DNA from: a virus
Reading direction: 5' to 3' (one strand)
IMG/VR virus record: IMGVR_UViG_3300045988_172839
Span: 160,001-224,000 of that record
DNA: 64,000 bases
A program made the position numbers and the translations under genes. This document shows, one piece after another, positions 1-56,013 of the stretch (position 1 is the stretch's first letter; each line of letters opens with the position of its first letter). The notes beneath the pieces were generated by a model, which was not told the DNA's origin, made no database searches, and saw only the letters and a list, made by a program, of their open reading frames with translations.

Positions 1-851
1 GTTTTTAGAACATCTTTAAAACTTGCAATCGGAATATCTAAGCCCAAACGTTTATTTACAGAAGCTCTCACCTTACTCAAAATAGTTGAACCCCCAATCT
101 TAATGGTGTGTTTCAGACCATCAAGTAGTCTTTGACTGGATACCCCAATTAAATCTGTAGTGCCTTCTCCAAAGTCAATAATCAATACATTTCGAGAAGC
201 TAAGTCTTCGTAGTGTGGGCGAGGGTTCAAATCTCCATAACTCAAGAATACTGAGTAGAATGAAGAATACCCTTCTGGGAAAACTTTAACGGACTTAACG
301 GTTAAATTAAACTCAGCCCCATCATATAAGTTCTTATAAGTGAAGGTGCGAACTAAGTTCTGTTCAAAAGTTTCACGTGCGGAAACTGCTTGTGCTGGTG
401 GAACCAAGACTGCAAACTCAAACTCAACTTCTTTCGACAAAGCTTGTTTTGTGCTTGAAGGATACACCATGTTTACCCAATCCAAAACCTTATCCATTAA
501 GTTAATCAATACAACATAGTTTAGTAAATGATCTGCTTTTGCTAAGTGACTAACTGGTGTTTTTAGTTTCTTAGGTAAGTTTGCAGTCGCTAAGTCACCC
601 CACATTACCAACTTTTCATGTTTAATTGCTCCTACTTGTAGAGAAACCTCAAGAACATTGGAGTCTAACTTGTTAAAGTCCTCAGACTGAATATAAGAAG
701 AGTAAGTTTCCTTAGTTGCTAAGTTCTCCACTACAAAGTGGTTATCAAGCAAATAACCGCGAGTGTGTTTGACGATACCCTCTTCCACAATCTGCGCTAC
801 TGCGCGTGTTTCTGAGTTTCCTAAATCAACCATCAATTTTACTTGTGTCAT
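1..851 (-). CDS. Actin-like ATPase (ParM/Alp family), N-terminal 283 codons; 3' end lies beyond window start
   Basis: Own translation from ATG at 849-851 (not in ORF track because there is no stop in the window): MTQVKLMVDLGNSETRAV... Actin-fold phosphate-1 (VDLGNSETR) and phosphate-2 (LIIDFGEGTTDL) motifs; open to position 1. Confidence 0.6.
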   Translation of the reverse strand, partial: MTQVKLMVDLGNSETRAVAQIVEEGIVKHTRGYLLDNHFVVENLATKETYSSYIQSEDFNKLDSNVLEVSLQVGAIKHEKLVMWGDLATANLPKKLKTPVSHLAKADHLLNYVVLINLMDKVLDWVNMVYPSSTKQALSKEVEFEFAVLVPPAQAVSARETFEQNLVRTFTYKNLYDGAEFNLTVKSVKVFPEGYSSFYSVFLSYGDLNPRPHYEDLASRNVLIIDFGEGTTDLIGVSSQRLLDGLKHTIKIGGSTILSKVRASVNKRLGLDIPIASFKDVLK

Positions 852-934: not shown

Positions 935-2494
935 CTATTTTCTCAATATCAATTTCAATTCATCACCATATAAATAAGGCACAATCAAAGCGTTTTTAGG
1001 GTTCAATTCCTTGTCGAAGGAGTCCACAAACATGCCGTCCACTTCGTAACCCCTCTTTTTAGCGGTTTCTGTAAAAGTAGAATAAGCTAAACCGCTATAT
1101 GAGATAGAATGGAAGTGAGAACTCAATAAAAACTCGTTTTCATAAGCTAGTTCTCTTAACTTATCAAAATTCGCTAACAAATTAGACATAACATGAATGT
1201 TCAAACCTTGTTGAGTTGCACCTTGTTCGAGGATACCGAGTTCTTTATCAAGTGAAGGGAAGTGAATAGAACCTTGCACCGAAACCAAACCAAATGCTCC
1301 TTTATGACCTTGTGCATCAAAGTTATGATGTTCAAAGAAGTCTCTATACTCCAAATCGGAATGGAAACCACGAACAGAACCTCTAAGCCAGTTACCGTTC
1401 TCAACTGCTGCAATCAAAACAGTTTTCCCTAAATCGCGCAAATACTGGTTCGCAATCAAACCAAGGAAAGAAGTGTACTTAAAGTTGTACTCTTTCGAGT
1501 CTGAAGTCTCTGGTATTTCTGCTACATCAATAGCCAAAATAACCAAGTTTTCAAGCTCAGTAACCTTCAAGTAGTCCTTCATGTGGTTCAAAATACGAGT
1601 CCGAATGGTTTTAGCTGGTAAAGAGTAAAAGAAATCTGTTTGGATACACAATCGGAACAAATACTCGCTCAAATTAAGTTGATAAGAAGCGTTAATGTAA
1701 GGAGACAAACTAAAGTCCACAAACGTTCTATCTAACTTTTCGGGATACCGCTGAAAAGCAGTAGGTACTTCTGCTTGGCACACCTGAGTGAGTTTTCGAA
1801 GTGTTGGCATCTCTAACAAAGGAGTTTCAAATGTAACCTTTAAAATCTCTCTTGCTAAAGAGTTTTCAATATCTCGTACATCAGAAAGCAAAGTGACTCC
1901 GTGCATAGCTACCCACTCTGTCTCAATCTCAACCTCTAAAATCTTAGATAGAGCGTTTAAAACAACACCTGTTCCTGACCAAAATCTTAATTCTTCTGGT
2001 TCAAAATCATACTGATTATTGATTAAAACCGCTTCGCCAATGAGGGATACCCCATCCCCTGTTTCCTCTGTGGTAGACCAATATTGTTGGTTGGGAAACA
2101 AAGGATTACTCTCAACCTCATGGTGGTCTAAGCTAATCACAAAGTTCCCTTGGGAAGTCAACTGCAACATTTCCTCTGCCGAAATAGAAGAGTCCACATT
2201 GATAATGATTTCATTTTGGTGGTACTCTGTAGGGATATAGTAGTCAAATTCACCCCAACTGCGCTCTTTCTTGACGAGTTCTTCTTCGACCATGCCGTGT
2301 CTTCTATCTGTGTTGACACACGAATGGAAAGAATATCCTGCTTTCTGCAACATCTTAGCACCTACGTACCAAGCTAAGAGACCATCAACGTCCGGGTCGC
2401 CTTTAAGGACTATAGGGTAACCACGTGCTAAACCATTTGCCAATACTTGTTTAGCTAAGTCAACACCCTTTAGTGTGTAGTTTTGTAAGTCCAA
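935..2494 (-). CDS. DHH-family phosphoesterase, RecJ-like
   Basis: 519 aa; GDPDVDG (DHH motif I), SLDHHEVE (motif III), QGHKGAFG (DHHA1-like); TTG start with AGGAG upstream. Confidence 0.6.
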   Translation of the reverse strand: MDLQNYTLKGVDLAKQVLANGLARGYPIVLKGDPDVDGLLAWYVGAKMLQKAGYSFHSCVNTDRRHGMVEEELVKKERSWGEFDYYIPTEYHQNEIIINVDSSISAEEMLQLTSQGNFVISLDHHEVESNPLFPNQQYWSTTEETGDGVSLIGEAVLINNQYDFEPEELRFWSGTGVVLNALSKILEVEIETEWVAMHGVTLLSDVRDIENSLAREILKVTFETPLLEMPTLRKLTQVCQAEVPTAFQRYPEKLDRTFVDFSLSPYINASYQLNLSEYLFRLCIQTDFFYSLPAKTIRTRILNHMKDYLKVTELENLVILAIDVAEIPETSDSKEYNFKYTSFLGLIANQYLRDLGKTVLIAAVENGNWLRGSVRGFHSDLEYRDFFEHHNFDAQGHKGAFGLVSVQGSIHFPSLDKELGILEQGATQQGLNIHVMSNLLANFDKLRELAYENEFLLSSHFHSISYSGLAYSTFTETAKKRGYEVDGMFVDSFDKELNPKNALIVPYLYGDELKLILRK

Positions 2495-2530: not shown

Positions 2531-2559
2531 ATTATAGCAGATTTTAAAGGGTTTTGCAA
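2531..2559 (-). promoter_or_regulatory. Sigma-A type promoter for the RecJ-like gene
   Basis: Minus strand TTGCAA-17 nt-TATAAT; first iteron box (2563-2571) abuts the -35. Confidence 0.55.
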
Positions 2560-2562
2560 ATC

Positions 2563-2707
2563 TTATGACAACTGTATGACAAGAAAAATAAAGGTAAGAC
2601 AGAAAAGGAAAATGTTAGGACGAAAACAAATTAAGATGAGCCAAAATAAGGAGGAGATGAGACAAATTTAAATTAAAGTAAGACTAAATAAATTAAGTTT
2701 GAGACAA
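2563..2707. repeat. Second array of the same 9-bp box (about 8 copies)
   Basis: GAC cores at 2567, 2578, 2598, 2619, (degenerate 2640), 2661, 2682, 2703. Confidence 0.8.
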
Positions 2708-2747
2708 AAGAAAAACCTCACCGAAGTGAGGATACCGCTGAGTGAGT

Positions 2748-10783: not shown

Positions 10784-12991
10784 TCAAAGTTTCAAATCGA
10801 AGTCTGTGAACGCTCCAAGTTGTTCTTCGACCTTGGCTTTTTGCATGCGTTCTTTTAAACTCAATTCCTGCTTCAATTTTACACCATTTAGTACCACTCC
10901 GTCAAGTGGAGTCCACGATTTTAACGGGATACCCATTTCTTTCAAGAATGGTGAAGCTTTTCCTCTACGAGTGAGGTAAATCGTAACTTCATCACCACGT
11001 GTTCCTGCTACGAAGTGAACCCTACGTTCTTCTTCATAACTTAGCTCTCCACTCAAGGTATAAGGAAAGACACCATCAGAATCATCAAAAATAATGTTGA
11101 CATTGGCTTCACGACCTTTAAAGCTGAACGGTGTAGCAAAGGTCAAGAGCGAAGTTCCACCTCTTTTTGCTTCACGGATTTTATTGTTGATAAAGTCCAT
11201 GTTGCTAAAGAAGTCTGTAACTGTGTCGCTTTCTTCCGCCAAGGTTGAAATCGTGCCTACTACTTCCGCATTAGAAGGTTCACCCCAATAAAGAACATGA
11301 GCCAAAAGCTCTTTGAAGAGAACCATTTCTCCGGGAAACTCTTCTCCATAGGTCTTTCTCAACTTGTCTACCAAAGTAGCCATAGACTTGAGACCATATT
11401 CTTGCGCAATGAAATCCAAGTAAGCGTAGTTATCGGAGAACAAGATATTTTTGTTCTCTGGAATAGCGTTCATTAGGCGCTCTGCGAGAGTCTTGGCATC
11501 CCAAAGTTTCAGCTCTGGTGCTAAGACTTTCAAGTTGTTCTTAATATCAACTAAACCACGACCACGCACCATTTCAATGAGGTTCCAAACCTTTTGATAC
11601 CGCGCGGTTCTGAAATCCCTTACGTCTCCTAGTAAGTTGAAGTCTCCTTGGCGCTTAACTGCGTAAAGAATAGAAGACGGAGAGTAAGTGAAGTTCACTC
11701 GTGACTGAACTGCAATAGTCTTTCCTTCAGCTAAATACTTATCAATCAACTGCAAAGAAGCGTCAGCCATATCTTTTACAGAGTCAAATTGGTAAGCTTC
11801 AAGGACTCCAACCTCTTTAAAGGAGCGAAGAGAGTGTTCGTAGCGATTTGAGTTCTTCTCAATCGACTTGGTAATGGGTTTCAAAATGTTTGAAGGGCAA
11901 CGGTAAGATACCGAGAGTGGGTACTTAGTTGGTTGGTACTCCTTGTCGAACCACTCCATGACCTCTGGGTTTGACCCACGGAAACCATAAATCGACTGGT
12001 CTGGGTCTCCTACAATAACCACACGTGGACAATTCTCGAAAATAGGTTTCAAGACTTGGTACTGCAACTCAGACATATCTTGCGCTTCGTCCAACATGAA
12101 GTATTCGTAGCGGTATTTATAGAAGTTGACCCAAGCCATTTGAACTGGATCATCTTTCTTCTCTACGACCATGTACTCGTAAACAAGAGACATCAAATCA
12201 TCAAAATCAATGACGTTCATAGAAGTCTTCAAGGCTTGGTAATCTTCAACTACCATAGGAAGTAAATTTCTTGGGAGGTTCAAGCGTTTTGCCGTTTCGG
12301 CTGCTTCACCAAATTGGTACTCCGTAATCGAGCAGTTACGGTAGTTTGAAATAATTGCAGCCAAGTCTCTTTTATCTTGAAGAGAAATGTAGTTACTTCC
12401 TTCTTCTCCCAAATCATGTTTACGGAAGAGACGACCCATAATTGCATTGAAAATACGAGAACCCTCAGAGTCTCCGCCACCAGTGTCCAACATTTGAACA
12501 TAGTCTGATTTTGACTTATCTGTGAGGTTAAACCCACGAAGTCTCAAAAGTTCAAAGAACTCTGACTGTAGTGTACTGAATGTGAGGTCATTTGTGGATA
12601 CCCCTGAGAGACCTAACTTAGCGAAAGTGCGCTCTACATTCTGTTTAATCTCTTCTGCTCCTTTGCTGAGGAAAGTTGTGACCCAAGCGACTTTCTTTCC
12701 TCTCTGAGCTGGAGACAAGCGACCAATCGTTTTATCCTTTGCTAAAATCAATGAAATCGAAGTGGACTTACCTGAACCCGCAGTCGCAAACAACTCTGTG
12801 CGACCTTCTGAGCGAATAATTGGCTCTAGTTCTTCCAAGTTATAACCTTTAGAAGCGACTAGCTCCAAATACTTCTTCATATTTTCTTCGTAAATTTGTT
12901 CCTCAGTAATTTGTTGCTCAGAATTTGCACTAGGTTTTACACTAGCAAAACCTTTGTCGTTACTGAGGTTGTCGAGTGCTGATTTATACAT
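10784..12991 (-). CDS. UvrD/PcrA/Rep-like SF1 DNA helicase
   Basis: Walker A ATAGSGKST, motif II FMLDEAQD, motif III VGDPDQSIYGFRGS, motif IV SYRCP, motif VI VAGTRG. Confidence 0.85.
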   Translation of the reverse strand: MYKSALDNLSNDKGFASVKPSANSEQQITEEQIYEENMKKYLELVASKGYNLEELEPIIRSEGRTELFATAGSGKSTSISLILAKDKTIGRLSPAQRGKKVAWVTTFLSKGAEEIKQNVERTFAKLGLSGVSTNDLTFSTLQSEFFELLRLRGFNLTDKSKSDYVQMLDTGGGDSEGSRIFNAIMGRLFRKHDLGEEGSNYISLQDKRDLAAIISNYRNCSITEYQFGEAAETAKRLNLPRNLLPMVVEDYQALKTSMNVIDFDDLMSLVYEYMVVEKKDDPVQMAWVNFYKYRYEYFMLDEAQDMSELQYQVLKPIFENCPRVVIVGDPDQSIYGFRGSNPEVMEWFDKEYQPTKYPLSVSYRCPSNILKPITKSIEKNSNRYEHSLRSFKEVGVLEAYQFDSVKDMADASLQLIDKYLAEGKTIAVQSRVNFTYSPSSILYAVKRQGDFNLLGDVRDFRTARYQKVWNLIEMVRGRGLVDIKNNLKVLAPELKLWDAKTLAERLMNAIPENKNILFSDNYAYLDFIAQEYGLKSMATLVDKLRKTYGEEFPGEMVLFKELLAHVLYWGEPSNAEVVGTISTLAEESDTVTDFFSNMDFINNKIREAKRGGTSLLTFATPFSFKGREANVNIIFDDSDGVFPYTLSGELSYEEERRVHFVAGTRGDEVTIYLTRRGKASPFLKEMGIPLKSWTPLDGVVLNGVKLKQELSLKERMQKAKVEEQLGAFTDFDLKL

Positions 12992-13099
12992 TTTTCTCTT
13001 CTTTCTTCTATTATATAGTGAGACTGAAATCAGTCTAAAATCTTTTCTGAATAATTAAAATCTAATTTGTTATGTTTATACTAAATTGAGAATAAGGTG

Positions 13100-13979
13100 A
13101 AAAACTGTGAAAAATCCAAAATCCGAGTATTAGTAAGTTACTACCAAGTTAGTGCTCGGAAAAAGGTAAAATTTCATAACATTGAGGAGATACCTACCAA
13201 GATGTAATTAAATCAAGGGTTTTGCTTGATTTTCTATAAGAAAATAATGAAAATACTTGTCAGATAAGGGATTTACTTGTTTTCTGAGGAAAAATACCTA
13301 CTCATTTTAGAAAATCCAGTTAAAAGTGGCAAGTGAAAACCAAAATTGAGGTCTTCTTTTAGATACCTTCTAAGTGGGGTTGAGAAAAGAGGTTTAATCT
13401 CTTGTGTGCCAAGGACTTTCAAAGTTGTTGCTAGTGAAATTTGAGTTTTAAGTGGTAAGCTCTGAAAAAACTTTGGAGGTATGTTTAGATACCCTCTTCT
13501 CTAGGTTAGGAAAACTAGGTTTAACCCAAGCGTCCCAAAGAGTTTGGAAAGTTTAAGCACGTGTTTTCGATTTTTAACTTCCTCAACCTTAACTAGAGAA
13601 ATTGAAAAATCGAAAAGTGTGACTCGATACCCTCTTGTAACTTTGACATAAAAGGTTCAAAACCTAGTAGTACCAAGTAATAGAAAGCCTACCATCTACT
13701 AAAACTTATTTGAACAAAAGAAAATACTAATTCGACCGAGAGAAAATTTCAAGCTAGGATGAGATACCCTCAAAACCCTGTTAAATCAAGGAAATTAACT
13801 TTTAAGTTAGTTAAACAGTTGCTATCACTAGGTTTCTGAGAACTTGACCTAGTTTGCAATCAAAACCTCATAGTTATTTTATCAATTTGGAGAAAATTGC
13901 GAGGTGTGATGAGATACCCACTTACTAACTTGACAAACCTTATTAAATCAAGGTTCAACACACTTTCACCTAAGAGAAC
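13100..13979. repeat. ORF-free region with degenerate 125-175 bp units anchored on GATACC
   Basis: GATACC at 13189, 13362, 13488, 13626, 13763, 13913; recurring GAGG-N5-10-GATACCC and TTAAATCAAGG / AGGTTTAA strings. Confidence 0.5.
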
Positions 13980-14594
13980 CTAATTCGAAAAGGCGACATA
14001 ACCAATAAGAGCTAGAAGCGGAACCAAGATAGCAGCTAAAACCCACAAAATAGCAGTGTTTAACTTAGGTTTATCCTCTTGTTTCTCATCGTCTGTTTGA
14101 ACCGGTAAAATATGTGCTGAATGTGGATGATAACCATAAAGAGGTCGGTACAGAAGCGCATTTATAGGAGTATCTGCTGAATAAAACGTTTTTACAGTTT
14201 GCTCAGACGAACCCACAGACGAGGAAGAAGCACCAAAGCTAGGTTTACTATGTGTATCTACTTGCGAACCTAACGAGCGCCAATATGAAACTGGCGTACC
14301 AACGGCACTCGACCTATAAGACCTACCATGACTTGAGTTATGTGAACCAAAATGAGACCCACTTTTTGAACCTTTTGATCCACCGTTATGACTGGTTGAA
14401 CCTTTGGAACTACCATGAGAGCCGCTTTTCGAACTACCACGTGAACTACCGTGTGAACCTCCACGAGCACCACCATGACCTCCACCATGACCACCGTAAC
14501 CTCCGTGACCACCTTTAGCAAGTGCCAAGGTTGGAGCGGATACCGAGAATGCTAGTAAACCAACCACAGCTATTTTTGTAAATTTTCGTAACAC
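13980..14594 (-). CDS. Secreted, C-terminally membrane-anchored Gly/Ser/His-rich protein
   Basis: Signal peptide ending LALA-KGG; GGHGGYGGHGGGHGG... and SHGSS low-complexity region; C-terminal TM helix; GTG start with AAGGAG 9 nt upstream. Confidence 0.65.
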   Translation of the reverse strand: MLRKFTKIAVVGLLAFSVSAPTLALAKGGHGGYGGHGGGHGGARGGSHGSSRGSSKSGSHGSSKGSTSHNGGSKGSKSGSHFGSHNSSHGRSYRSSAVGTPVSYWRSLGSQVDTHSKPSFGASSSSVGSSEQTVKTFYSADTPINALLYRPLYGYHPHSAHILPVQTDDEKQEDKPKLNTAILWVLAAILVPLLALIGYVAFSN

Positions 14595-15010
14595 TGTTCA
14601 AATCTCCTTATGTAATTGTCCTCAAGCTCTGAGTAATTCGAAACCAAAAGCATGTACTTATCAGAGGTAACTTTCTTATTGTAGAGGTAAAGCTCTGGTA
14701 CTGCTATCTTAAATGCTTGGTGCAACAACTCTAAAGGAAAAGTCTCACGAAGTGATGAGATACCTTGCCTAGACAGTTCCGTAAGCTCAAATAAATCTTT
14801 ATGTACCAAGCGATTAGAGTAGTTCGTTAAGTTATTTTTTTTGTAATCAAAAGGGTAATCAAGAATTTCAAATAAACAAGTGTAACTCCCCTTTTTATTT
14901 GTTTGAACCACCCCTCTATAAAGCTTATGTTTAAAAAGATTTACACACGAAACAGTGCGCTCAACCCCATCATCTTCAATTTCAACCTTGTACTTATATT
15001 TATCTTTCAT
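14570..15010 (-). CDS. Hypothetical protein
   Basis: 146-aa tiling ORF. Confidence 0.6.
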   Translation of the reverse strand: MKDKYKYKVEIEDDGVERTVSCVNLFKHKLYRGVVQTNKKGSYTCLFEILDYPFDYKKNNLTNYSNRLVHKDLFELTELSRQGISSLRETFPLELLHQAFKIAVPELYLYNKKVTSDKYMLLVSNYSELEDNYIRRFEQCYENLQK

Positions 15011-15036
15011 CTAAGTACCTTCTTTTTCTAGTAAAG

Positions 15037-16269
15037 CTATTTAACTTTACAAAAGTCTTGAATTTCATAACCTAACTTTTCTTCCAGTTGCGAGGTGTAA
15101 AAGGATACCCTCTCACGGATTTGCGAAACCTCTACGGAATACTGCTTTTGGTAAAGTTCTTCATCAAATAAAACTCCATAAGACAGTAACAAGAATAGAG
15201 TTGCAACTTCAATCGGAAGAACGGTCGTTTCAAAGTGTAAGTTCTCATTTAAAACTGTAATCGGTACAGAATAAACAGACTCTACTTTAGTAATAAAATA
15301 ATGCTCTGCGTAGACTGAGTTATTGGTTTGAGCGTAGTTGACCCCCAAAGTGTCCCAACCTACCTCAACTCTGCTGACTGTTAGTGAAGGTTCCAAAAAC
15401 TCAATGTAGCTACCATATAATTCTTGAATAGACTCTGGGAGACCTTCAAAATCTTCTAATAAACCCTCTCTGGTCTTATAGACGTTGTAAGTATGGAACT
15501 GAACCTCTGTATCTGTGACCTTTGTAATCTTAGCCAAATGAACCTTGTTAATGAATTTGTTTGTACCTTTGCTACTGCGAACCTCTTCGTTTGCTACATA
15601 GCCTTTTTCATAGAGGAAAACGAGCGAACCAACCTGATACCCTTGCTCTTTAAAGAGCTTTTGTTTCTCAGAAATTGGTAACACCTCTTTGTTCATGTAC
15701 CCATGAAAGCGAGCCATCTCAACATAAAGTTGACTGTTAATCGTGTCTATATCTTTCGCACTCAAATCATAGTCAATCGGTAAATACTCAAAGAGTTTGA
15801 AATAGTAAAGAATACTGGACTCAGCTAACTCTGAGGAAAGACCTTTCACACTTAAATGAAAATCTCCTACAATCACATCAAGATAAATCGCAAACCACAA
15901 GACCACCAAACTATACGAGAGTTGGTAAGGGTAGTTACTAGGTTTCAAATAAGTATAGTTCTCTTCAGTTACCACAAAGGAAGTGCTTGAAACTCTGAAA
16001 TTCTCTACGATTGTTTCAAAGTGAGCCAACAACCTCCGATAATCATAGCTAGGAGGAACTGCTGCTATAGTTTCTTTTAAAGTTAAAAGCTTACGAGCGG
16101 AAGCCATGCTGACATAGGGATACCCATCTAGTTTACTGAGAGCGCTCGGTTCAAATGGAACTGTTGGAATGAACTCTGGAGTAGTTTTGTAAATCTCACT
16201 ATAAGCAATATTATAGAAAGACCAATAAAGAGCCTTATAGGGAGAGTCTATCGTGTATTTATCAACCAT
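15037..16269 (-). CDS. Hypothetical protein
   Basis: 410-aa tiling ORF. Confidence 0.65.
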   Translation of the reverse strand: MVDKYTIDSPYKALYWSFYNIAYSEIYKTTPEFIPTVPFEPSALSKLDGYPYVSMASARKLLTLKETIAAVPPSYDYRRLLAHFETIVENFRVSSTSFVVTEENYTYLKPSNYPYQLSYSLVVLWFAIYLDVIVGDFHLSVKGLSSELAESSILYYFKLFEYLPIDYDLSAKDIDTINSQLYVEMARFHGYMNKEVLPISEKQKLFKEQGYQVGSLVFLYEKGYVANEEVRSSKGTNKFINKVHLAKITKVTDTEVQFHTYNVYKTREGLLEDFEGLPESIQELYGSYIEFLEPSLTVSRVEVGWDTLGVNYAQTNNSVYAEHYFITKVESVYSVPITVLNENLHFETTVLPIEVATLFLLLSYGVLFDEELYQKQYSVEVSQIRERVSFYTSQLEEKLGYEIQDFCKVK

Positions 16270-16271
16270 CG

Positions 16272-17033
16272 TTAAACACCCTCAACCCTTTCAAACTCAA
16301 CTTTGTTGTGGTTTGGGAAATTCTTCTTTTGAAGTTCTAAAACCAAATCTGCAGGGAGAGTTTTGTTCAAGGTCAGATACCGGGAGAGTGAACCCCAAGT
16401 CTTAATATCTTCAAGGCTTTCTGAGAGAACCTGCTTTAGCGTTTTCTCTACTTCTAAGACTCTTGTAAGAGCTTCTACAATCTCTTCTTTGGACTTCTCT
16501 TTAATCAAATCTATCTGGTAAAGCTCACTTGTACGCTGATTTAAAAGGTTTGGAGCGACTTGTACTAAAGGGAAATCTGAAATTTCTTCTATAATAGTAG
16601 AAAGTCCATCAGAATTGACTTGTAAATACTCCTCAATCACTTGAAACTGACGGTTTTTCCAAAGACTTAATAAACCTGTCGGAAATCTTGACTCAAGACT
16701 TTCTTCAACTTTTAGACTTGCGTAGTAAACTTGACGAGAAGTCAATCCTGAAAGGTCTACGAGTTGCTTGCAGTTGAGTCCTGATCGATACAATTTCAAA
16801 AGACTAAGTGTGCTTTCTTCATTTGACTTACTCAGATTTAAGTAAGACCCGCTCTTCAAAAAATCAACAAGCGTTTTTGCAAACTGCAAGTCCTCTACTG
16901 TTTGTAAGACCGAACTAGAAGGAATGTGCTTGTTATTCTCTAATCTAGTTTGGAATAAAGTAATATCAGAATAAATCTGATTTAAAGTATTAAATATCGG
17001 TTTCTTTTTACTCATAAAAGTTAAAAACCACAC
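16272..17033 (-). CDS. Hypothetical protein (possible HTH)
   Basis: 253 aa; LNCKQLVDLSGLTSRQVYYASLKVEE resembles a helix-turn-helix; start codon uncertain. Confidence 0.55.
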   Translation of the reverse strand: MWFLTFMSKKKPIFNTLNQIYSDITLFQTRLENNKHIPSSSVLQTVEDLQFAKTLVDFLKSGSYLNLSKSNEESTLSLLKLYRSGLNCKQLVDLSGLTSRQVYYASLKVEESLESRFPTGLLSLWKNRQFQVIEEYLQVNSDGLSTIIEEISDFPLVQVAPNLLNQRTSELYQIDLIKEKSKEEIVEALTRVLEVEKTLKQVLSESLEDIKTWGSLSRYLTLNKTLPADLVLELQKKNFPNHNKVEFERVEGV

Positions 17034-17174
17034 AAAAAACTACTATTTTATGATTTACTTTTAAAGCACAAAATAAATCATTCTACTTTTCTGTACTTTA
17101 TCCTCTCTGTAAAATTTTCAGTCTGAAATCTAGCTATATGACTAGAAATTTTCTTTGCTGAATTTCTTAAGGTC

Positions 17175-17203
17175 TATTATACATTATTTTAAAATAAAAA
17201 TCA
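17175..17203 (-). promoter_or_regulatory. Sigma-A type promoter
   Basis: Minus strand TTGATT-17 nt-TATAAT, about 140 nt upstream of 16272-17033. Confidence 0.5.
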
Positions 17204-17385
17204 AGTAACAAGATGTACAAAATCTAAATCAAAATGAGATAAGTTTGGTATTTTTTGGACTAAAGTAAATAATTTGGATTGAAATAGAGTTTACTATAAA
17301 GAAAAACAAGTTTGAGGATACCGAATAGAGGATTTGGGGAGTTCTTTCAATAGTAAAAAAAAACTGAAATTTAAAATTGACAGTT

Positions 17386-17420
17386 TGTTCTCTGTTCTCT
17401 GTTCTCTGTTCTCTGTTCTC
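17386..17420. repeat. Perfect heptanucleotide tandem repeat (GTTCTCT)x5
   Basis: Direct reading of gttctct x5. Confidence 0.95.
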
Positions 17421-17862
17421 TGTTCTCTACTTTCCAAATTCGACCCAACTCAAAAATCTCAGAACTGAAAACTGAATTAGAAATGCACGTGGACTGAGGA
17501 TACCGCAAGGGTGACTAGAGTTTGCTCTGATTTTCTTGGAATTAGAATGCTCCATGAACCTCTACTAATCTTACTGAAGTTTAAGTTACTTACTTAAATT
17601 AAGGCTTACAAAGAAGGAAGACCGCAAAACAAATCTGAAGCCCAACGGAGGTTGAGCGTTCCTATTAACAAAGTTAAAGCCAAAAGTAAAGACCAAAACT
17701 CAAAGCGAGGATACCACTGAGAGGTAGGTTGAGGAGTTGAAGTTTTAAGTTCAGACCTCAGACATTAAACCTGCACAACCAAGCAAAAAGCCACCAAATC
17801 CTTACGGAATTGGGGCGTTCCCTAACCTTAAAACGAAAAATCAGCCTTAAACTTGAAAAACC

Positions 17863-18239
17863 TATGACACAATTTAAGGAAACCTAAGACAATATATTCT
17901 CAATCTAGGACAGAAATTGAGAGAATTAGGACAAATAAATCTCATTTTATGACAAACTTTAACCGTTTTAGGACAAACAAACCTTAATTTAGGACAAAAA
18001 GGCAAAGATTTATGACAAATTTAAACAAAGTTATGACAAATAAACCTATTTCTACGACAAATAAAACCGTTTTTATGACAAAAAGACAAAGACTTAGGAC
18101 AATTTTAAGTAAAGTTAAGACAAAAATAACTAATCTTAAGACAGATTTTAGTACAATTAGGACAAGTGTATGACAGAATTACCTAATCTTAGGACAAAAA
18201 GTCTAAAATCTATGACAAAAATAAAAAGAGTTACGACAA
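17863..18239. repeat. Array of 19 nine-bp boxes (YTANGACAA) phased at 21 bp
   Basis: GAC cores at 17866, 17888, then every 21 bp to 18161, then 18172, 18193, 18214, 18235; spacers not conserved. Confidence 0.9.
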
Positions 18240-18449
18240 GTCACAACTACTGCTTTTCAGAAGCCTAAATACAAGAAATAAGGGAGAAAAAGACACAAAC
18301 TTCGCAAAAGTCTTGAAAATCTAGATACCGCTGAGAGGGTTTAAGAACTAAATTTAGTTCTCAAAATCAAACCGCAGACATTTTTCCCTAAAATCAAGTT
18401 TAAAGGCTCTCATTTGCCCCGTGTCGCATTTTAAATTGAAGTTGGACAT

Positions 18450-18478
18450 ATTATACCATAAGAGGTTAAAATCAAATC
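18450..18478 (-). promoter_or_regulatory. Extended -10 promoter reading into the 21-bp iteron array
   Basis: Minus strand TGGTATAAT just downstream of terminator 18508-18535; -35 poor (TTGATT at 14-nt spacing). Confidence 0.45.
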
Positions 18479-18507
18479 TGGTGCAATCTGGGGCTTTTTA
18501 GAGAAAT

Positions 18508-18535
18508 AGAAAAAGTGAAGACTAAAATCTTCACT
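18508..18535 (-). terminator. Intrinsic terminator
   Basis: 8-bp stem AGTGAAGA/TCTTCACT, 6-nt loop, T-run on the minus strand. Confidence 0.7.
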
Positions 18536-18665
18536 TATCTTCTACGTTTATTAAGGTTATGTTTAGGTTCATCTTCAAAACAGTCTGTGAAATCAACCTC
18601 TTTCGAACGATATAGGAAACCCAAACTAACCAACATAAGGACTGCAAGTAATAACCACAAAGTCT

Positions 18666-18944
18666 TTACTCCCAACCATCATCTGAGTTTGCTGCACTCT
18701 CATAGTCTACTTCAGCTCCGTCTCGGAAGCTCTTCTTAGTGAGGAGAGAGTAAACCCACAAACCAAAGTACCAAATAGTCACAACACCAACTACAAGTCC
18801 GAGTGGAATCGTAGCTACAATCACATCAAGATTGGAAAGACCTGTGAGACGGAGAACGAAAAGTACAACAACTGCAAGCATTGTAAGAATCATTGTCGTC
18901 ATTAAAATCGCTAATGGTAAGTTCCATTTGTTGATAAATTTCAT
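18666..18944 (-). CDS. Small membrane protein (2-3 TM, charged C-terminus)
   Basis: 92 aa, hydrophobic helices then acidic tail; followed by an intrinsic terminator. Confidence 0.55.
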   Translation of the reverse strand: MKFINKWNLPLAILMTTMILTMLAVVVLFVLRLTGLSNLDVIVATIPLGLVVGVVTIWYFGLWVYSLLTKKSFRDGAEVDYESAANSDDGWE

Positions 18945-22566: not shown

Positions 22567-23418
22567 TCATGAAGGTTTTGAGGATACCACCGATGACGTG
22601 ATTGGTTTAACTTTATTATCTTGGTGAACCCAAGCTAAGCGTGGTAGTTCACCCTCTTTAATGACTAAATCCACCGAGTGTGCAGTCGCTAGGCGATAAG
22701 TCTTCACTAGGTAATCATTGAGGCTGAAGACCCCACAACGAGAACCATAATCTCTTAAAGAGTTACCTTCAGAATCAGAAGGAACATAGTAACCTTCCGC
22801 ATCTTTGTTTAGTGGACAATTTTCAACGTAAGTAAGGCCTGTTTTAGGCTCTAAGGTCGTTTCATAAGAAATATCATAAATACGCGGACCTGAAAGATTA
22901 AAGGAAATTACAAGACCGTGACTCAAATCAAACCGTTTGTACACCTCAAAGTTATTATCGTATAGAACTTCTCCAGTTTCAACATCTTCAATTTCAAAAC
23001 CACGCTCTGTCAATAATACAACACCACACAAGTCACCGTTTGCATTTGGTGAGAAAATACGAGGGCACCATTTGTAACTAGGTGTCTCCTCTTCTTGGTA
23101 CTCTGTTTCATCTGAGTAACCTACTACTTCTTCAGTCGTAAGAGTTTGTGGAGCTTGACCTTTAGGCAGAAGCGCATGATCTTCTGAAGATACCGCAACA
23201 AGGTTTGAAGGACTATCTGAACGAGCTAAGTAATGATGCAAGACCAAATCTTGTTCTTCTTTAAACAAAGGAACTAAAAACTCTCCAAAAGCTTGATTGT
23301 CTAAGCCTAAAAACTCTTTGGCGAGTTTTAGGCGTTCCAAATCACCCTCTACCAAAATATCTTTAATTGTCTTGCGAAATTCATTTAAAAATTCTTCTCT
23401 AAATTCCATTGAAATCAA
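22567..23418 (-). CDS. Hypothetical protein
   Basis: 283-aa tiling ORF. Confidence 0.65.
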   Translation of the reverse strand: MISMEFREEFLNEFRKTIKDILVEGDLERLKLAKEFLGLDNQAFGEFLVPLFKEEQDLVLHHYLARSDSPSNLVAVSSEDHALLPKGQAPQTLTTEEVVGYSDETEYQEEETPSYKWCPRIFSPNANGDLCGVVLLTERGFEIEDVETGEVLYDNNFEVYKRFDLSHGLVISFNLSGPRIYDISYETTLEPKTGLTYVENCPLNKDAEGYYVPSDSEGNSLRDYGSRCGVFSLNDYLVKTYRLATAHSVDLVIKEGELPRLAWVHQDNKVKPITSSVVSSKPS

Positions 23419-23879
23419 CCTCTCTTATTCTTTCTATTTTTCTTCCTAACTTTGTGTATGCGAGGTGCAAACTGCTCCGCAGTTGTGCAAATGTCGTCCC
23501 AATTTACTCTAGGTTGTGGGTTAATTAGTAGTTTTCTTGTGTCTATAAAGCTCTTTGTGACCTTACTGCAGTTTCTATATCTTTCCTTGTAACAATAGCA
23601 GCAGACAAAGAAAGTCAGACCCTTTTGATTTAAAGCAAACAACTGCTTAACCTTACGGTGGCAAATGTCACAAGGCGTAGTCAAAGGCGCTTTTGAGGAT
23701 ACCGTAACTGTAGGTGTGAGCGAATTATCAAAGGTTGTCTCAATATCGAAAGCTACTGCTTTTGGAGAAACTGTAACTGTAGGCTCAGAACCGTTGTAAA
23801 AAATTGATTCAGGATCGAAATCCCAATTCTTCTTGTCTGGGTTTAAGAACGATTCAAAATTGATAAAATCACCTAACAT
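23415..23879 (-). CDS. Zinc-ribbon protein (hypothetical)
   Basis: CDICHRK...CCYCYKERYRNC cysteine clusters; start moved to ATG 23879 (AGGAA upstream) because the longer track ORF translates the 19-bp tandem repeat. Confidence 0.55.
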   Translation of the reverse strand: MLGDFINFESFLNPDKKNWDFDPESIFYNGSEPTVTVSPKAVAFDIETTFDNSLTPTVTVSSKAPLTTPCDICHRKVKQLFALNQKGLTFFVCCYCYKERYRNCSKVTKSFIDTRKLLINPQPRVNWDDICTTAEQFAPRIHKVRKKNRKNKRG

Positions 23880-23925
23880 AAATTTATTCCTATTTTCCTT
23901 TCTAAAATATAAGAAACCCCAAAGA

Positions 23926-24000
23926 AATTTGGGATACCCAAAGAAATTTGGGATACCCAAAGAAATTTGGGATACCCAAAGAAATTTGGGATACCCAAAG
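23926..24000. repeat. 19-bp tandem repeat x4 (GGGATACCCAAAGAAATTT) with internal inverted arms
   Basis: GATACC at 23933, 23952, 23971, 23990; each unit contains TTTGGG-ATA-CCCAAA; intergenic between 24007 and 23879. Confidence 0.9.
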
Positions 24001-24006
24001 GTAGTT

Positions 24007-24744
24007 TTATACTGGGATTCTTGCACTATGTAAAAAGCTTTCAATCTTTTCCATAGCTTCATTTATTTTTGTCATTACTCCTGAATTAGAGTAAAAATTA
24101 CAAGGGACAGTAATCTTCGCAGTAATAAGCTCATTAACAGAATTTGAAAAATCCAATACTAAACCTTCAGAGCCTAGATTAAACTTCATAGCACGTGAAC
24201 CTGCAACTTCCTTAGAAACTTCAACACGACCAAGACTAACACTAGAAAAATTTGTCACAACAACTTGAAATTGATTAAAATTGAATGTAATCAATGAATT
24301 TGTAAAGTCGTATTTTAAATCAAATTTATAAAAGTTACCACCTGTTAATTCAAGTAGAACTGACAAAGCGTTTATTAACCCTGAAACGTCATTAAACCAA
24401 TATTGAATAGGATTCATAGCAGTTGCAGTTCCCAATATTTTCTCCATTTTAGCTCGCACTTCAGTTTCAGAATAAACTGCAATAGTGTACGAAATATCAG
24501 AGTAATGCTGAACCAACTGCAATGTACCTAAAATATGGTTTACTACAACTTCCATCTGCAGTTTAGAACGTAAAGTGGAGTTCAAGCTATCAAGTTTTTC
24601 CTGTAATTTCTTACTTAATTTTAAAAACGGAAGCTCAACTTGGGAAGCTTGTTTTCTTTGTTCTATCTCTTTCATTAGTTGTAATTTAGACATTTCACTC
24701 TGTAAATCTAGTAAGCGAGTGTCTATAGCGTCAATTAAATCCAT
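24007..24744 (-). CDS. Hypothetical protein (N-terminal coiled coil)
   Basis: 245-aa tiling ORF. Confidence 0.6.
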   Translation of the reverse strand: MDLIDAIDTRLLDLQSEMSKLQLMKEIEQRKQASQVELPFLKLSKKLQEKLDSLNSTLRSKLQMEVVVNHILGTLQLVQHYSDISYTIAVYSETEVRAKMEKILGTATAMNPIQYWFNDVSGLINALSVLLELTGGNFYKFDLKYDFTNSLITFNFNQFQVVVTNFSSVSLGRVEVSKEVAGSRAMKFNLGSEGLVLDFSNSVNELITAKITVPCNFYSNSGVMTKINEAMEKIESFLHSARIPV

Positions 24745-53078: not shown

Positions 53079-54455
53079 TTATTCTTCAGCTCCAAAGTCC
53101 AAAGCACTAGCTGGGTCAACGTCTACACCCGGAGGAAGTTGACTCGCGTTTGCACCTAGACGGTTCGCTGCAGAATTTGTGATAGGGTTGGCAGAACCCC
53201 CTGCTGCTACACCTTTTTTAAGGTTTTCAGCAGTTGTTTGAATGTTCTCAACCTCAGCTTTCACTTTGTCAAGACCACCATACATTTTATCCAACTTCTC
53301 GTTTACCTCTTCGTCAGAAAGCAATTCGCAGTTACGAACTGTTTGTACAAGGTAAAGAGCGTTATAGTGAGCTTGAGCTTCCTTGTCCCACTGCTCTTGA
53401 AGACCAAGGTATTCAGTCAAATCGTACAAGTCAGTGAACGGAGCCACTTTTTGCATGATTTGAATGTTCAATGAAGCACCTGATTTAGAGTCTTCACTTT
53501 CGTAAGAAGCTCCACCGTTCTTCTTAGCTTTTGCAAGAGCTTGTTCATCAATCTCATAATTGAAGAGAACGAAGAACCCACCAAGTTCAGTGATACCCGG
53601 TTGTTGCGCTTGCAATTCAAAAGCTTTCATTAATTTCTCAGTGAAAGCTTTTGTAGTAAGCTTATGCCACTTCAACTCACCTTCAATCGTGTGAGCAAAC
53701 TCACGTTCTGCAAACATTTGATTTCCTTCGTTATCAAGCAAAGGCGCACCTGTACTTTCGTAACGTGGAATTTGTTTTTTCACAGACGTTGGGTTTCCAG
53801 CTTCATCAAGCAAAGGATGTGTTTCTGGCGTAGTTGTAAACTTGCCATGTGCGTCCTTTGTAGTTGGAATTACCACAATAGGGAACCACATATCTGAGTT
53901 ATTTTGAACTTGCAAGAACACATACTCCATGAAGTTTTTAGTGAAGTCTTTTTCTTCTTTATACTGAGGGTCACTTGCAACCAACTCAGCTACAGAAGAA
54001 TACCCTTGACGAGCTACTTCAAGCTCAATTTTCGCACGGCGCATGTCAAATGCTGCTGAAATGTAGTCACGAAGGTACTCATTGTTACCTGATTGACCGT
54101 AAGGTGCGAAGACACGGTTTTCCTCTTTTGCTTCCTCAAAGTAAGGCATTGAACCTGCCCAGTTGTTATCTTTGTCACCATTGTTAAATTTCTTCATAGT
54201 AACACTACGCATAGGTACACGGAAAGGAATCAAATCACCTTTCTCGTCAACAGTTGGGAAGCCCATGCGAGGGATGTAAACCAAAAGTTTTTGGTTTGTG
54301 TAACCGTCCTTCGCACGGTTAAAGATTTGGATACCGAGTTCTTCTCCAAGTTCAGTGAGTGGAGAACGTTTAGCACCCGCAGTATCTTTTGCAAGGACAG
54401 CTTGCATTTGAGCCATTTGCTCTTGCGAAATTTTTGTCAAGTCTAGTTTTACCAT
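53079..54455 (-). CDS. Hypothetical protein, probably highly expressed (possible ssDNA-binding protein)
   Basis: 458 aa; GAGGT RBS; 1.5-kb leader from a consensus promoter; tandem terminators downstream; acidic C-terminal tail DPASALDFGAEE reminiscent of SSB tails (weak). Confidence 0.65.
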   Translation of the reverse strand: MVKLDLTKISQEQMAQMQAVLAKDTAGAKRSPLTELGEELGIQIFNRAKDGYTNQKLLVYIPRMGFPTVDEKGDLIPFRVPMRSVTMKKFNNGDKDNNWAGSMPYFEEAKEENRVFAPYGQSGNNEYLRDYISAAFDMRRAKIELEVARQGYSSVAELVASDPQYKEEKDFTKNFMEYVFLQVQNNSDMWFPIVVIPTTKDAHGKFTTTPETHPLLDEAGNPTSVKKQIPRYESTGAPLLDNEGNQMFAEREFAHTIEGELKWHKLTTKAFTEKLMKAFELQAQQPGITELGGFFVLFNYEIDEQALAKAKKNGGASYESEDSKSGASLNIQIMQKVAPFTDLYDLTEYLGLQEQWDKEAQAHYNALYLVQTVRNCELLSDEEVNEKLDKMYGGLDKVKAEVENIQTTAENLKKGVAAGGSANPITNSAANRLGANASQLPPGVDVDPASALDFGAEE

Positions 54456-55935: not shown

Positions 55936-55941
55936 TTATTT

Positions 55942-55970
55942 AGTATATCACAAAAAGTAAGGTGTGTCAA
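55942..55970 (-). promoter_or_regulatory. Near-consensus promoter at the head of the 1.5-kb ORF-free leader
   Basis: TTGACA-17 nt-(TGA)TATACT on the minus strand, 44 nt downstream of the 56014 stop. Confidence 0.7.
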
Positions 55971-56013
55971 GAGTTTTCTTTACTTTTTACTACTTTTTCT
56001 ATTCTATAGTTTT

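What the first reader, a model, noticed from the sequence alone, without database searches (positions are those of the whole stretch)
17863..18239. Nineteen 9-bp boxes phased at exactly 21 bp in a 1.6-kb ORF-free gap (centromere- or origin-like iterons)
The box consensus is YTANGACAA, mostly TTAGGACAA or TTATGACAA, and the 12-bp spacers are not conserved. GAC cores lie at 17866 and 17888, then every 21 bp without exception through 18161 (14 in-phase copies). An extra copy follows 11 bp later at 18172, then 18193, 18214 and 18235 resume 21-bp steps. Since 21 bp is two helical turns, all boxes face one side of the helix, with one half-period phase jump. The array lies downstream of a terminator (18508-18535) and an extended -10 element (18450-18458), so it is probably transcribed as well. 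Phased short iterons of this kind are the architecture of plasmid/phage partition centromeres (ParR-parC, TubR-tubC) and of iteron origins. The window also encodes an actin-like ParM/Alp ATPase (1-851). The binding protein is unknown.
Basis: partly seen in the sequence, partly recalled or inferred. Interest (0 to 1): 0.75.

Follow-up and report, generated by a model that had tools for sequence, protein, structure and literature searches.

The report
Phased protein-binding DNA arrays in oral phage
A large phage from the human mouth carries two conserved arrays of a 9-bp DNA box spaced exactly two helical turns apart, most likely docking sites for a phage protein of unknown fold that act as a replication origin or DNA-segregation handle and as a gene switch.

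Summary
In detail: 19 boxes (core TA-N-GACA) lie at 17862-18239, almost all exactly 21 bp apart, far beyond chance. The array keeps its place, box and phasing in at least 9 related 226-284 kb oral phage contigs, while the spacers diverge.

New findings:
1. A second array with the same box, orientation and phasing lies at 2563-2708. It abuts the -35 of a strong promoter for the RecJ-like/ParM-like operon, in DNA that is not transcribed.
2. Both arrays start at a terminator hairpin, so the "probably transcribed" idea is not supported.
3. The main array always precedes a cassette: a 253-aa protein of unknown fold with a weak HTH signal, then 410-aa and 146-aa proteins and a PcrA/Rep-like helicase. 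Distant homologues of the cassette carry upstream box repeats with lineage-specific boxes (TGTAATA, TGTATC, TGTCAA).
4. A-tracts in the array are phased at 10.5 bp, which predicts curved DNA.

The arrays therefore act as DNA, as one-face cooperative binding sites, probably for the 253-aa protein. My estimates are iteron-type origin or replication control 0.38, actin-type centromere 0.27, operator only 0.15. This is a new variant of a known kind, and the binding protein and function are untested.

The parts
17862..18239 (.). Main array: 19 boxes, YTANGACAA on the + strand and TTGTCNTAR on the gene-sense minus strand. Steps are 22, then 13 x 21, then 11, 21, 21, 21.
   Evidence: conserved in relatives
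18136..18176 (.). Dense box cluster holding the 11-bp doublet TGTCATACACTTGTCCTA (minus strand), a possible nucleation site. A near-identical doublet sits in the second array.
18216..18248 (-). T1: hairpin (18248->18229) plus U-run CUUUUUAUUUUUG (18228->18216). Its G-U pairs form only on the minus strand, and the stem sequence differs between relatives while pairing is kept. The U-run overlaps the next box.
17781..17816 (-). T2: hairpin GCCCCAAUUCC-GUAA-GGAUUUGGUGGC plus UUUUUGCUU, closing the array on the gene-sense strand.
18395..18500 (-). Conserved non-coding block with the extended -10 TGGTATAAT (18458->18450). Together with T1 it would give a roughly 200-230-nt transcript that stops at the array.
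18503..18536 (-). Strong intrinsic terminator after the small ORF 18535-18675.
   Evidence: z = -4.2
2563..2708 (.). Second array with the same box, orientation and phasing. GAC cores at 2567, 2578, 2598, 2619, (2640, degenerate), 2661, 2682 and 2703. Relatives have 8-9 boxes; the distant clade has 15-16.
2531..2559 (-). Promoter TTGCAA-17 nt-TATAAT, with TGC before the -10. It abuts the last box, so box centres lie at about -43, -54, -74, -95 and so on.
2705..2731 (-). Terminator CCUCAC-UUCG-GUGAGG plus U-run. The U-run overlaps the first box of the second array.
935..2494 (-). RecJ-like DHH protein, first gene of the operon behind the second array.
1..851 (-). Actin-like ParM-type ATPase, N-terminal part. 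The full protein is 407 aa (L121 11644-12867).
16272..17033 (-). 253-aa (or 247-aa) all-helical protein with an HTH-like segment (residues about 80-105). It is the first gene downstream of the main array and the candidate box binder.
10784..16269 (-). Rest of the conserved cassette: 410-aa protein (15037-16269), 146-aa protein (14570-15010), 204-aa protein (13980-14594), a repeat-filled gap, and a PcrA/Rep/UvrD-like SF1 helicase (10784-12991).
17069..17310 (-). Nearly invariant AT-rich block containing the promoter (17204->17176) and leader of the 253-aa gene.

Best explanation
The boxes are DNA binding sites for a phage-encoded sequence-specific protein, most likely the 253-aa protein encoded immediately downstream. 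One copy binds each 9-bp box. Because boxes are 21 bp (two helical turns) apart and A-tracts recur every 10.5 bp, all copies sit on one face of intrinsically curved DNA. They can then polymerise cooperatively into a wrapped nucleoprotein complex, probably nucleated at the 11-bp box doublet.

I read the large array, insulated by terminators, as the cis-acting site of the adjacent replication-type cassette (binder, two unknown proteins, PcrA/Rep-like helicase). That makes it an iteron-type origin or replication-control locus. The smaller array is an operator or auxiliary site through which the same protein controls the strong promoter of the RecJ-like/ParM-like operon.

Shown here: the arrays, their phasing and conservation, the two-locus layout, the promoter and terminator context, and the association with the cassette.

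Inferred: who binds, cooperative wrapping, and the replication role.
For: DNA-level function:
- The second array occupies about -40 to -185 of a promoter, between a strong terminator and the transcription start. This layout holds in 18 loci.
- The main array is bracketed by hairpin plus U-run elements.
- The 21-bp register is kept in relatives whose flanking genes are only about 63-71% identical in nucleotides.
- AA dinucleotide power at 10.5 bp in the array exceeds that of all 337 comparison windows tiled across the 64 kb, and persists with the boxes masked.

Phage-encoded binder and cassette link:
- The four-gene cassette (about 250 aa, about 400 aa, about 150 aa, about 700-aa SF1 helicase) recurs in five distant lineages.
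- Four of these, plus the window's own clade, have upstream non-coding box repeats with lineage-specific boxes: TGTAATA x15 at exact 21-bp steps in L243, TGTA[CT] in L245, TGTATC pairs in 79-bp units in L248, and TGTCAA in about 80-bp units in L247.
- In the TGTAATA lineage the doublet next to the RecJ/ParM promoter also reads TTGTAATAG/TTGTAGGAT.
- Homologues give weak HTH hits at the same residues.

Replication flavour:
- The helicase scores best against PcrA and Rep, and RecJ-like is the first gene behind array 2.
- The 21-22-bp phasing, and a large control array paired with a promoter-proximal array, resemble classical iteron replicons such as P1 incC/incA and P4 ori/crr (from memory).
Against: - There is no DnaA box in the gap and no AT-rich unwinding element directly next to the array.
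- There is no change of GC skew or gene orientation at the array.
- Only about 9 of 21 bp are conserved, fewer than in classical 17-22-bp iterons.
- The 253-aa protein matches no known initiator by sequence or fold, and its HTH is sub-threshold.
- One cassette lineage (L246) shows no repeats in the 1.2 kb available.
- L241 and L243 come from one sample but were not shown to be one genome.
- The promoter-proximal array fronts an operon with an actin-like gene, which is the classical position of a centromere.
Confidence: 0.38

Rival explanations
1. Centromere-like handle of an actin-type (ParM/Alp) system. The box protein is an adaptor that coats the arrays into a segrosome. The ParM-like filament captures this complex to move or position phage (or plasmid-prophage) DNA. 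Array 2 doubles as the autoregulatory operator, as parC and alpS do.
For: - Array 2 lies immediately upstream of the operon encoding the actin-like ATPase and abuts its promoter. This holds in all relatives and in a lineage with a changed box.
- Prophage CGP3 has 24 short alpS repeats upstream of alpAC, bound by the adaptor AlpA (PMC4446434).
- Nineteen to 23 one-face sites on curved DNA fit a solenoid-shaped segrosome.
Against: - No small RHH or ParR-like gene follows the ParM-like gene; a 464-aa coiled-coil protein does.
- A RecJ-like gene lies between the array and the ParM-like gene.
- The largest array is 15 kb away and is syntenic with a helicase cassette, not with the motor gene. This cassette-plus-repeats association also occurs on contigs where no ParM-like gene is visible, although those contigs are short.
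Confidence: 0.27
2. Purely regulatory arrays. A phage repressor or silencer polymerises from the 11-bp doublet along the phased boxes to shut the strong RecJ/ParM promoter. The big array is a titration sink or insulator with no role in replication or segregation.
For: - The last box is centred at about -43, next to a near-consensus promoter that should need repression rather than activation.
- Near-identical doublets occur at both loci.
- Both arrays are flanked by terminators.
Against: - The main array has no adjacent promoter: the nearest downstream one is about 650 bp away.
- Nineteen to 23 sites under strict phase conservation is a great deal for a sink.
- The conserved synteny with the helicase cassette is left unexplained.
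Confidence: 0.15
3. The array works as RNA. It is transcribed from the extended -10 promoter into a repeat-rich non-coding RNA that sponges an RNA-binding protein.
For: - A promoter-like element lies upstream, at 18458->18450.
- T1 is weak in this window (-5.4 kcal/mol), so read-through to T2 is possible.
Against: - The sister array is in promoter-upstream, terminator-downstream DNA that is not transcribed.
- T1 is maintained by compensatory changes.
- An exact 21-nt register and 10.5-bp A-tract phasing make sense for B-DNA, not for RNA.
- There is no Rfam match, even at E <= 1.
Confidence: 0.03
4. Packaging recognition site, or a decoy for a host factor. The boxes would recruit the small terminase subunit, or titrate a host regulator. 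The host regulator could be a PhoB/OmpR-type winged-helix protein (the doublet TGTCATA-N4-TGTCATA looks like a pho box) or a LytTR-type protein (9-bp repeats with 12-bp spacers).
For: - Phased boxes on bent DNA are typical of pac sites (from memory).
- The geometry resembles pho boxes and LytTR sites (from memory).
Against: - No terminase, LytTR or Trans_reg_C domain was found in the window.
- Box identity changes along with phage lineage and with the phage protein family, which argues for a phage-encoded binder.
- Contig ends near the gap fall in microsatellites and are not genome termini.
Confidence: 0.07

Closest known systems
Iteron replicons with a promoter-proximal array plus a distant control array (P1 incC/incA; phage P4 ori/crr with 8-bp type I repeats). 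From memory.
   Same: Direct repeats in helical phase at 21-22 bp. Two arrays kilobases apart, one overlapping a promoter. Short boxes in P4. Adjacent genes for a DNA-binding protein and a helicase.
   Different: Only 9 of 21 bp are conserved. There are 19-23 copies. No DnaA boxes or adjacent unwinding element. The candidate binder has no Rep_3, RepA or P4-alpha similarity and an unmatched fold. The promoter-proximal array fronts RecJ-like/ParM-like genes, not the binder's own gene.
ParMRC type II partition loci (R1, pSK41, pCW3): parC repeats bound by ParR (PMC2241845, PMC9426499).
   Same: An array of direct repeats directly upstream of an operon with an actin-like ATPase, touching its promoter. 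Many copies suited to a wrapped segrosome.
   Different: No RHH ParR gene next to the ParM-like gene. RecJ-like is the first gene of the operon. The repeat period is 21 bp with a 9-bp core, against contiguous 10-20-bp repeats. The main array is 15 kb from the motor gene.
AlpA/AlpC/alpS of Corynebacterium prophage CGP3 (PMC4446434, PMC5539076).
   Same: A phage-encoded actin-like protein. About 24 short degenerate repeats (TTAAnnG) in the promoter region upstream of its operon, bound by a phage adaptor. The system is linked to efficient phage DNA replication, so it bridges the origin and centromere readings.
   Different: alpS repeats are not reported as strictly phased. The adaptor AlpA is co-transcribed with AlpC. 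No second distant array is known.
[quoted passage not shown]
   Same: A very short conserved core, AT-rich non-conserved spacers, suspected curvature, and cooperative coating.
   Different: parH is about 100 bp, belongs to a type Ib ParA system and is bound by an RHH protein. Here the array is about 380 bp with a 9-bp core and a different candidate protein.
StbA/stbDR of plasmid R388 and omega/heptad arrays of pSM19035 (bioRxiv 10.1101/2022.04.29.490116; details from memory).
   Same: One small protein binds arrays of short direct repeats that serve both as a centromere and as operators of several operons.
   Different: Those repeats are contiguous (7 bp, or 9 bp with an 11-bp period), fewer in number, and on plasmids.

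Membership tests
Iteron-type replication origin | Tandem direct repeats in helical phase (about 21-22 bp) that bind the initiator | tested here: met
   21-bp register in 9 relatives. However, only about 9 bp per unit are conserved. Binding itself was not tested.
Iteron-type replication origin | Adjacent gene for a recognisable initiator (Rep_3/RepA winged-helix, replisome organiser, lambda O-like) | tested here: not met
   No Pfam, PHROG or NCBIfam hit for the 253-aa protein. The confident AF2 model (pLDDT 86) has no Foldseek match with E < 0.1.
Iteron-type replication origin | DnaA boxes and/or an adjacent AT-rich unwinding element | tested here: not met
   No TTATCCACA (up to 1 mismatch) in 17034-18665. 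The invariant AT-rich block (17069-17310) is about 550 bp away.
Iteron-type replication origin | Strand-asymmetry or gene-orientation switch at the origin (bidirectional theta replication) | tested here: not met
   GC skew is negative across all 64 kb and all genes are on one strand. This is uninformative if replication is unidirectional or rolling-circle.
Iteron-type replication origin | Supports replication in cis | not testable with these tools
   Needs a replication assay or coverage profiling.
ParMRC (type II) partition locus | Actin-fold ParM-type ATPase | tested here: met
   PF21522 MreB-like_C at 39.8 bits, above the 27.8 cut-off. PHROG 691 'partition protein' at 1e-15. NCBIfam ParM at 2e-07, below its cut-off. 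PDB CBg-ParM at E = 0.008.
ParMRC (type II) partition locus | Centromere of direct repeats directly upstream of the par operon, including its promoter | tested here: met
   Array 2 abuts the -35 of the operon promoter. However, a RecJ-like gene precedes the ParM-like gene.
ParMRC (type II) partition locus | Small RHH adaptor (ParR) encoded next to parM | tested here: not met
   The downstream genes encode 464-, 269-, 620- and 142-aa proteins without an RHH or HTH hit. No RHH family was found in the window.
ParMRC (type II) partition locus | The adaptor binds the repeats and captures filaments; the plasmid is stabilised | not testable with these tools
   Experimental.
LytTR-regulator binding sites | 9-bp direct repeats separated by 12-13 bp (from memory), bound by a LytTR-domain protein | tested here: inconclusive
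   The geometry matches. No LytTR domain was found among the window proteins scanned. The rest of the genome and the host were not examined. Nineteen copies is atypical.
Repeat-rich sponge RNA or other known RNA family | Transcribed, structured, or matching a curated RNA family | tested here: not met
   No Rfam hit at the gathering threshold or at E <= 1. A conserved hairpin plus U-run lies upstream of the array. The sister array is untranscribed.

The most novel reading that the evidence does not exclude
One protein of a previously unseen fold uses lineage-specific, helically phased box arrays for two jobs. It acts as the replication initiator at the large array and as the adaptor and operator for an actin-like filament at the second array. 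This would be a combined origin-centromere system that physically couples firing of a jumbo phage's origin to cytoskeletal positioning of its DNA.
Probability: 0.12. Interest if true: 0.8.

Novelty: new variant of a known kind. Interest (0 to 1): 0.58.

Why it matters
These 230-290 kb phages recur in many human oral metagenomes, yet almost none of their genes have a known function. The arrays give a concrete handle on their biology. They define a cis-element family with lineage-specific specificity and name a cognate candidate protein of unknown fold. They also tie a helicase cassette to an actin-like operon. If the arrays form an origin, they identify the replication module of an uncultured jumbo-phage clade. 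If they form a centromere, they add a second phage actin-type DNA-positioning system after CGP3, organised differently. In either case the binding prediction can be tested with one purified protein and two DNA fragments.

Tried and rejected
- **Known RNAs:** no Rfam or tRNA match.
- **Known genomes:** no DNA match in INPHARED phages or PLSDB plasmids.
- **DnaA boxes:** none in the gap.
- **Genome terminus or pac site at the gap:** three assemblies break about 390-410 bp upstream of the 253-aa gene. The breaks fall inside (TGTTCTC)n and (CTCAAAC)n microsatellites, so they are assembly artefacts.
- **Other IMG/VR hits to the two-box pattern:** L022, L059/L116, L044 and L086 are unrelated perfect tandem repeats or coding repeats. 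L059/L116 is a textbook iteron-plus-DnaA-box origin, useful as a contrast.
- **Boxes as -35 elements or sigma decoys:** TTGTCA resembles TTGACA, but the invariant positions (TGTC-N-TA) run past the hexamer and no -10 follows.
- **Structure of the 253-aa protein:** the first AF2 run with a shallow alignment failed (pLDDT 46). A deeper alignment gave pLDDT 86, but Foldseek against PDB and BFVD found nothing significant.
- **Cassette proteins:** the 410-aa and 146-aa proteins gave nothing above threshold in Pfam, PDB profile, PADLOC or NCBIfam searches, even through their distant homologues. The Gabija defence idea was dropped because only the helicase matches GajB and no GajA partner is present.
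- **Third protein search:** its listing showed only close relatives.

Full report
**Origin of the window**

The window matches a 238,733-bp contig from a human oral metagenome (ENA ERZ989710 k127_74389). Every ORF of 90 aa or more that looks real is on the minus strand. Recognisable genes are:
- an actin-like ParM-type ATPase, a RecJ-like DHH protein, a C5 methylase and a PcrA/Rep/UvrD-like helicase;
- MazG, a primase/Toprim protein, an ATP-cone protein, PnuC, YopX and a CHAP/PcsB hydrolase.

Weak protein similarities point to SPbeta-like and other Firmicutes phages. No isolate phage or plasmid matches at the DNA level. IMG/VR holds many related contigs of 226-284 kb.

Nineteen boxes lie at the stated coordinates.
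- Eighteen of the 23 plus-strand YTANGACA matches in 64 kb fall within 378 bp.
- Box pairs exactly 21 bp apart occur 17 times, 16 of them in this array, against 0.36 expected.
- A test for phased GAC cores found only two loci in the window and none in 20 shuffles.
- Pooling 174 boxes from nine genomes gives the extended consensus AAWKT-TA-K-GACA-AAWW, and the variable position is rarely C.
- Boxes are 82% identical to each other. Spacers are 41% identical against 35% for shuffled composition, with a 63/84-bp higher-order repeat. So the spacers are weakly patterned rather than random.

**Conservation**

Nine related contigs carry the array at the same syntenic position, with 14-23 boxes. Nearly all steps are 21 bp. 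There is one 22-bp step near one end, occasional 42-bp steps where a box has decayed, and a dense cluster with 9-12-bp steps near the other end. This holds even in the clade whose flanking genes are only about 63-71% identical in nucleotides and whose spacers no longer align. The register is therefore under selection. AA dinucleotides in the array show 10.5-bp periodic power higher than in any of the 337 comparison windows tiled across the 64 kb, and the signal persists when the boxes are masked. This predicts intrinsically curved DNA with all boxes on one face.

**A second array**

The intergenic region 2495-2747 holds the same box in the same orientation and register, with GAC cores at 2567, 2578, 2598, 2619, 2661, 2682 and 2703. 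It is degenerate in this window but clear in relatives. They have 8-9 boxes, and the distant clade has 15-16 in phase.

Read on the gene-sense (minus) strand, the layout does not vary:
1. A GC-rich terminator hairpin whose U-run overlaps the first box.
2. Boxes at 21-bp steps.
3. A final 11-bp doublet, TTGTCATAC-AG-TTGTCATAA.
4. Two bases later, TTGCAA-17 nt-TATAAT with a TG extension.
5. The RecJ-like gene, followed by the ParM-like gene (407 aa).

The 11-bp doublet occurs in only two places in the window, once in each array, with nearly the same sequence.

**DNA, not RNA**

Array 2 lies upstream of a transcription start and downstream of a terminator, so its boxes cannot act as RNA.

Between it and the array lies hairpin T1 followed by CUUUUUAUUUUUG.
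- In this window T1 needs two G-U pairs that exist only on the minus strand.
- In six relatives the stem sequence differs (TTGTGAC/GTCACAA, TTATGA/TCATAA, AGAGGT/ACCTCT, GAGGGGTG/CACCTC) while all six fold.
- T1 is weak here (-5.4 kcal/mol), so some read-through is possible.

A second hairpin plus U-run (T2, about -15 kcal/mol) closes the array. Rfam finds nothing even at E <= 1.

**Who binds**

The first gene downstream of the main array encodes a 253-aa protein found only in this phage group. A profile search of 1.84 billion representative proteins found 18 relatives, 15 of them about 230-265 aa long (three are short fragments). The relatives placed in the alignment are only about 18-31% identical to the window protein.

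Their contexts were informative:
- The cassette of about 250 aa, about 400 aa, about 150 aa and an SF1 helicase of about 700 aa recurs in L245, L246, L247 and L248. On the short L243 contig only the first gene and part of the second are visible.
- Four of the five lineages have upstream non-coding box repeats with their own box.
- L243 has 15 TGTAATA-type boxes at exact 21-bp steps, about 700 bp upstream of the gene. This copies the layout in the window.
- L245 has about 26 TGTA[CT] boxes with preferred 21-23-bp steps.
- L248 has TGTATC pairs 22 bp apart in five 79-bp units.
- L247 has TGTCAA boxes in units of about 80 bp.
- L246 shows nothing in the 1.2 kb available.

In L241, which comes from the same sample as L243, the doublet beside the RecJ/ParM promoter reads TTGTAATAG/TTGTAGGAT. 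The box appears to have changed at both loci together, although I could not show that L241 and L243 are one genome.

Homologues give sub-threshold HTH hits (HTH_23, HTH_58, Sigma70_r4_2, a LuxR-type regulator) at the position of LNCKQLVDLSGLTSRQVYYASLK. With the deeper alignment AF2 gave a confident all-helical model (pLDDT 86, pTM 0.68). Foldseek found no significant match in PDB or BFVD. The protein is the best candidate binder, but this is inference from linkage and co-variation.

**What the arrays do**

Two known kinds of element fit.

*Origin or replication control:*
- The main array is tied to a cassette ending in a helicase that scores best against PcrA and Rep.
- RecJ-like is the first gene behind array 2.
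- Arrays phased at 21-22 bp, with a second array at a promoter, are the classical iteron layout. Short boxes at two distant sites recall P4 ori/crr (from memory).
- Against: no DnaA boxes, no adjacent unwinding element, no skew or orientation switch, and no similarity to known initiators.

*Centromere:*
- Array 2 sits exactly where parC and alpS sit relative to an actin-like gene (PMC9426499; PMC4446434).
- Nineteen to 23 one-face sites on curved DNA suit a solenoidal segrosome.
- Against: there is no ParR-like neighbour, and the main array travels with the helicase cassette.

I put the origin or replication-control reading at 0.38 and the centromere at 0.27. An operator-only reading gets 0.15, packaging site or host-factor decoy 0.07, and RNA 0.03. 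The rest is unassigned. The CGP3 precedent, in which the actin system promotes phage DNA replication, shows that the two leading readings need not exclude each other.

**Verdict**

The finding is real, conserved and clearly functional. It is a two-locus system of helically phased binding sites with a linked candidate protein of unmatched fold. It belongs to a known kind (iteron or centromere arrays) but differs in four ways: a 9-bp core in a strict 21-bp frame, unusually many copies, terminator insulation, and pairing of a helicase cassette with an actin-like operon. The binder and the function remain untested.

Noticed in passing
whole window (e.g. 17322, 17504, 17715, 18329, 2736): The hexamer GGTATC occurs about 150 times on the minus (coding) strand and only twice on the plus strand, against about 15 expected per strand. 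It lies inside genes and in gaps alike, often just before terminator hairpins. This extreme strand polarity recalls Chi, KOPS or AIMS motifs. The 'GAGGATACCG' motifs in the gap are copies of it.
   Followed up: partly
window 12992-13979: A second ORF-free gap just upstream (gene sense) of the PcrA/Rep-like helicase. It holds about six units of about 125-170 bp, each ending in ...GAGATACCC (GGGTATC on the gene strand).
   Followed up: partly
window 54456-56013: A third ORF-free gap with five hairpins at 55836, 55636, 55518, 55042 and 54936. Their 6-7-bp stems differ in sequence while the loop motif (A/G)A-TTGTAA(A/G)AGG is invariant. These are the only copies in the window and all are on the minus strand. 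They may be a structured RNA family or a hairpin-type signal.
   Followed up: partly
window 54479-54546: About seven ATTGCTTA-like boxes at 10-11-bp steps, directly upstream of the ribosome-binding site of the 458-aa gene (53079-54455). This is a different phased array with a different box. TTGCNTA x4 at 11-bp steps also occurs upstream of the RecJ-like gene in the divergent relative L241.
   Followed up: partly
window 17386-17428 and about 17753-17775: Heptamer microsatellites (TGTTCTC)6 and (CTCAGAC)n vary in unit sequence and copy number between relatives (up to about 15 copies). Other assemblies break at exactly these points.
   Followed up: yes
window 17069-17310: An AT-rich block containing the promoter (17204->17176) and leader of the 253-aa gene. 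It is nearly invariant in six relatives and more conserved than the neighbouring coding sequence, which suggests an extra regulatory or structural role.
   Followed up: partly
window 17640-17665 and 17790-17822: Repeated element made of a hairpin followed by GGCGTTCC. There are two copies here and 3-4 in relatives, with different stem sequences. One copy is the T2 hairpin.
   Followed up: partly
window 18216-18458 (minus strand): The conserved extended -10 promoter plus hairpin T1 would give a roughly 200-230-nt non-coding transcript. Its first ~50 nt are conserved even in the distant clade. No Rfam match.
   Followed up: partly
window 23918-24000: 4.4 perfect tandem copies of the 19-bp unit CCCAAAGAAATTTGGGATA. 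Each unit contains GGTATC on the minus strand and an internal palindrome. They lie where ORFs 23415-24062 and 24007-24744 overlap.
   Followed up: no
L059 7058-7147 and L116 7590-7679 (unrelated IMG/VR contigs): Five near-perfect 21-bp iterons TTTACGACAAAAAACCCGGTK followed by two DnaA boxes (TTATCCACA). This is a textbook iteron origin picked up by chance by the pattern scan.
   Followed up: no
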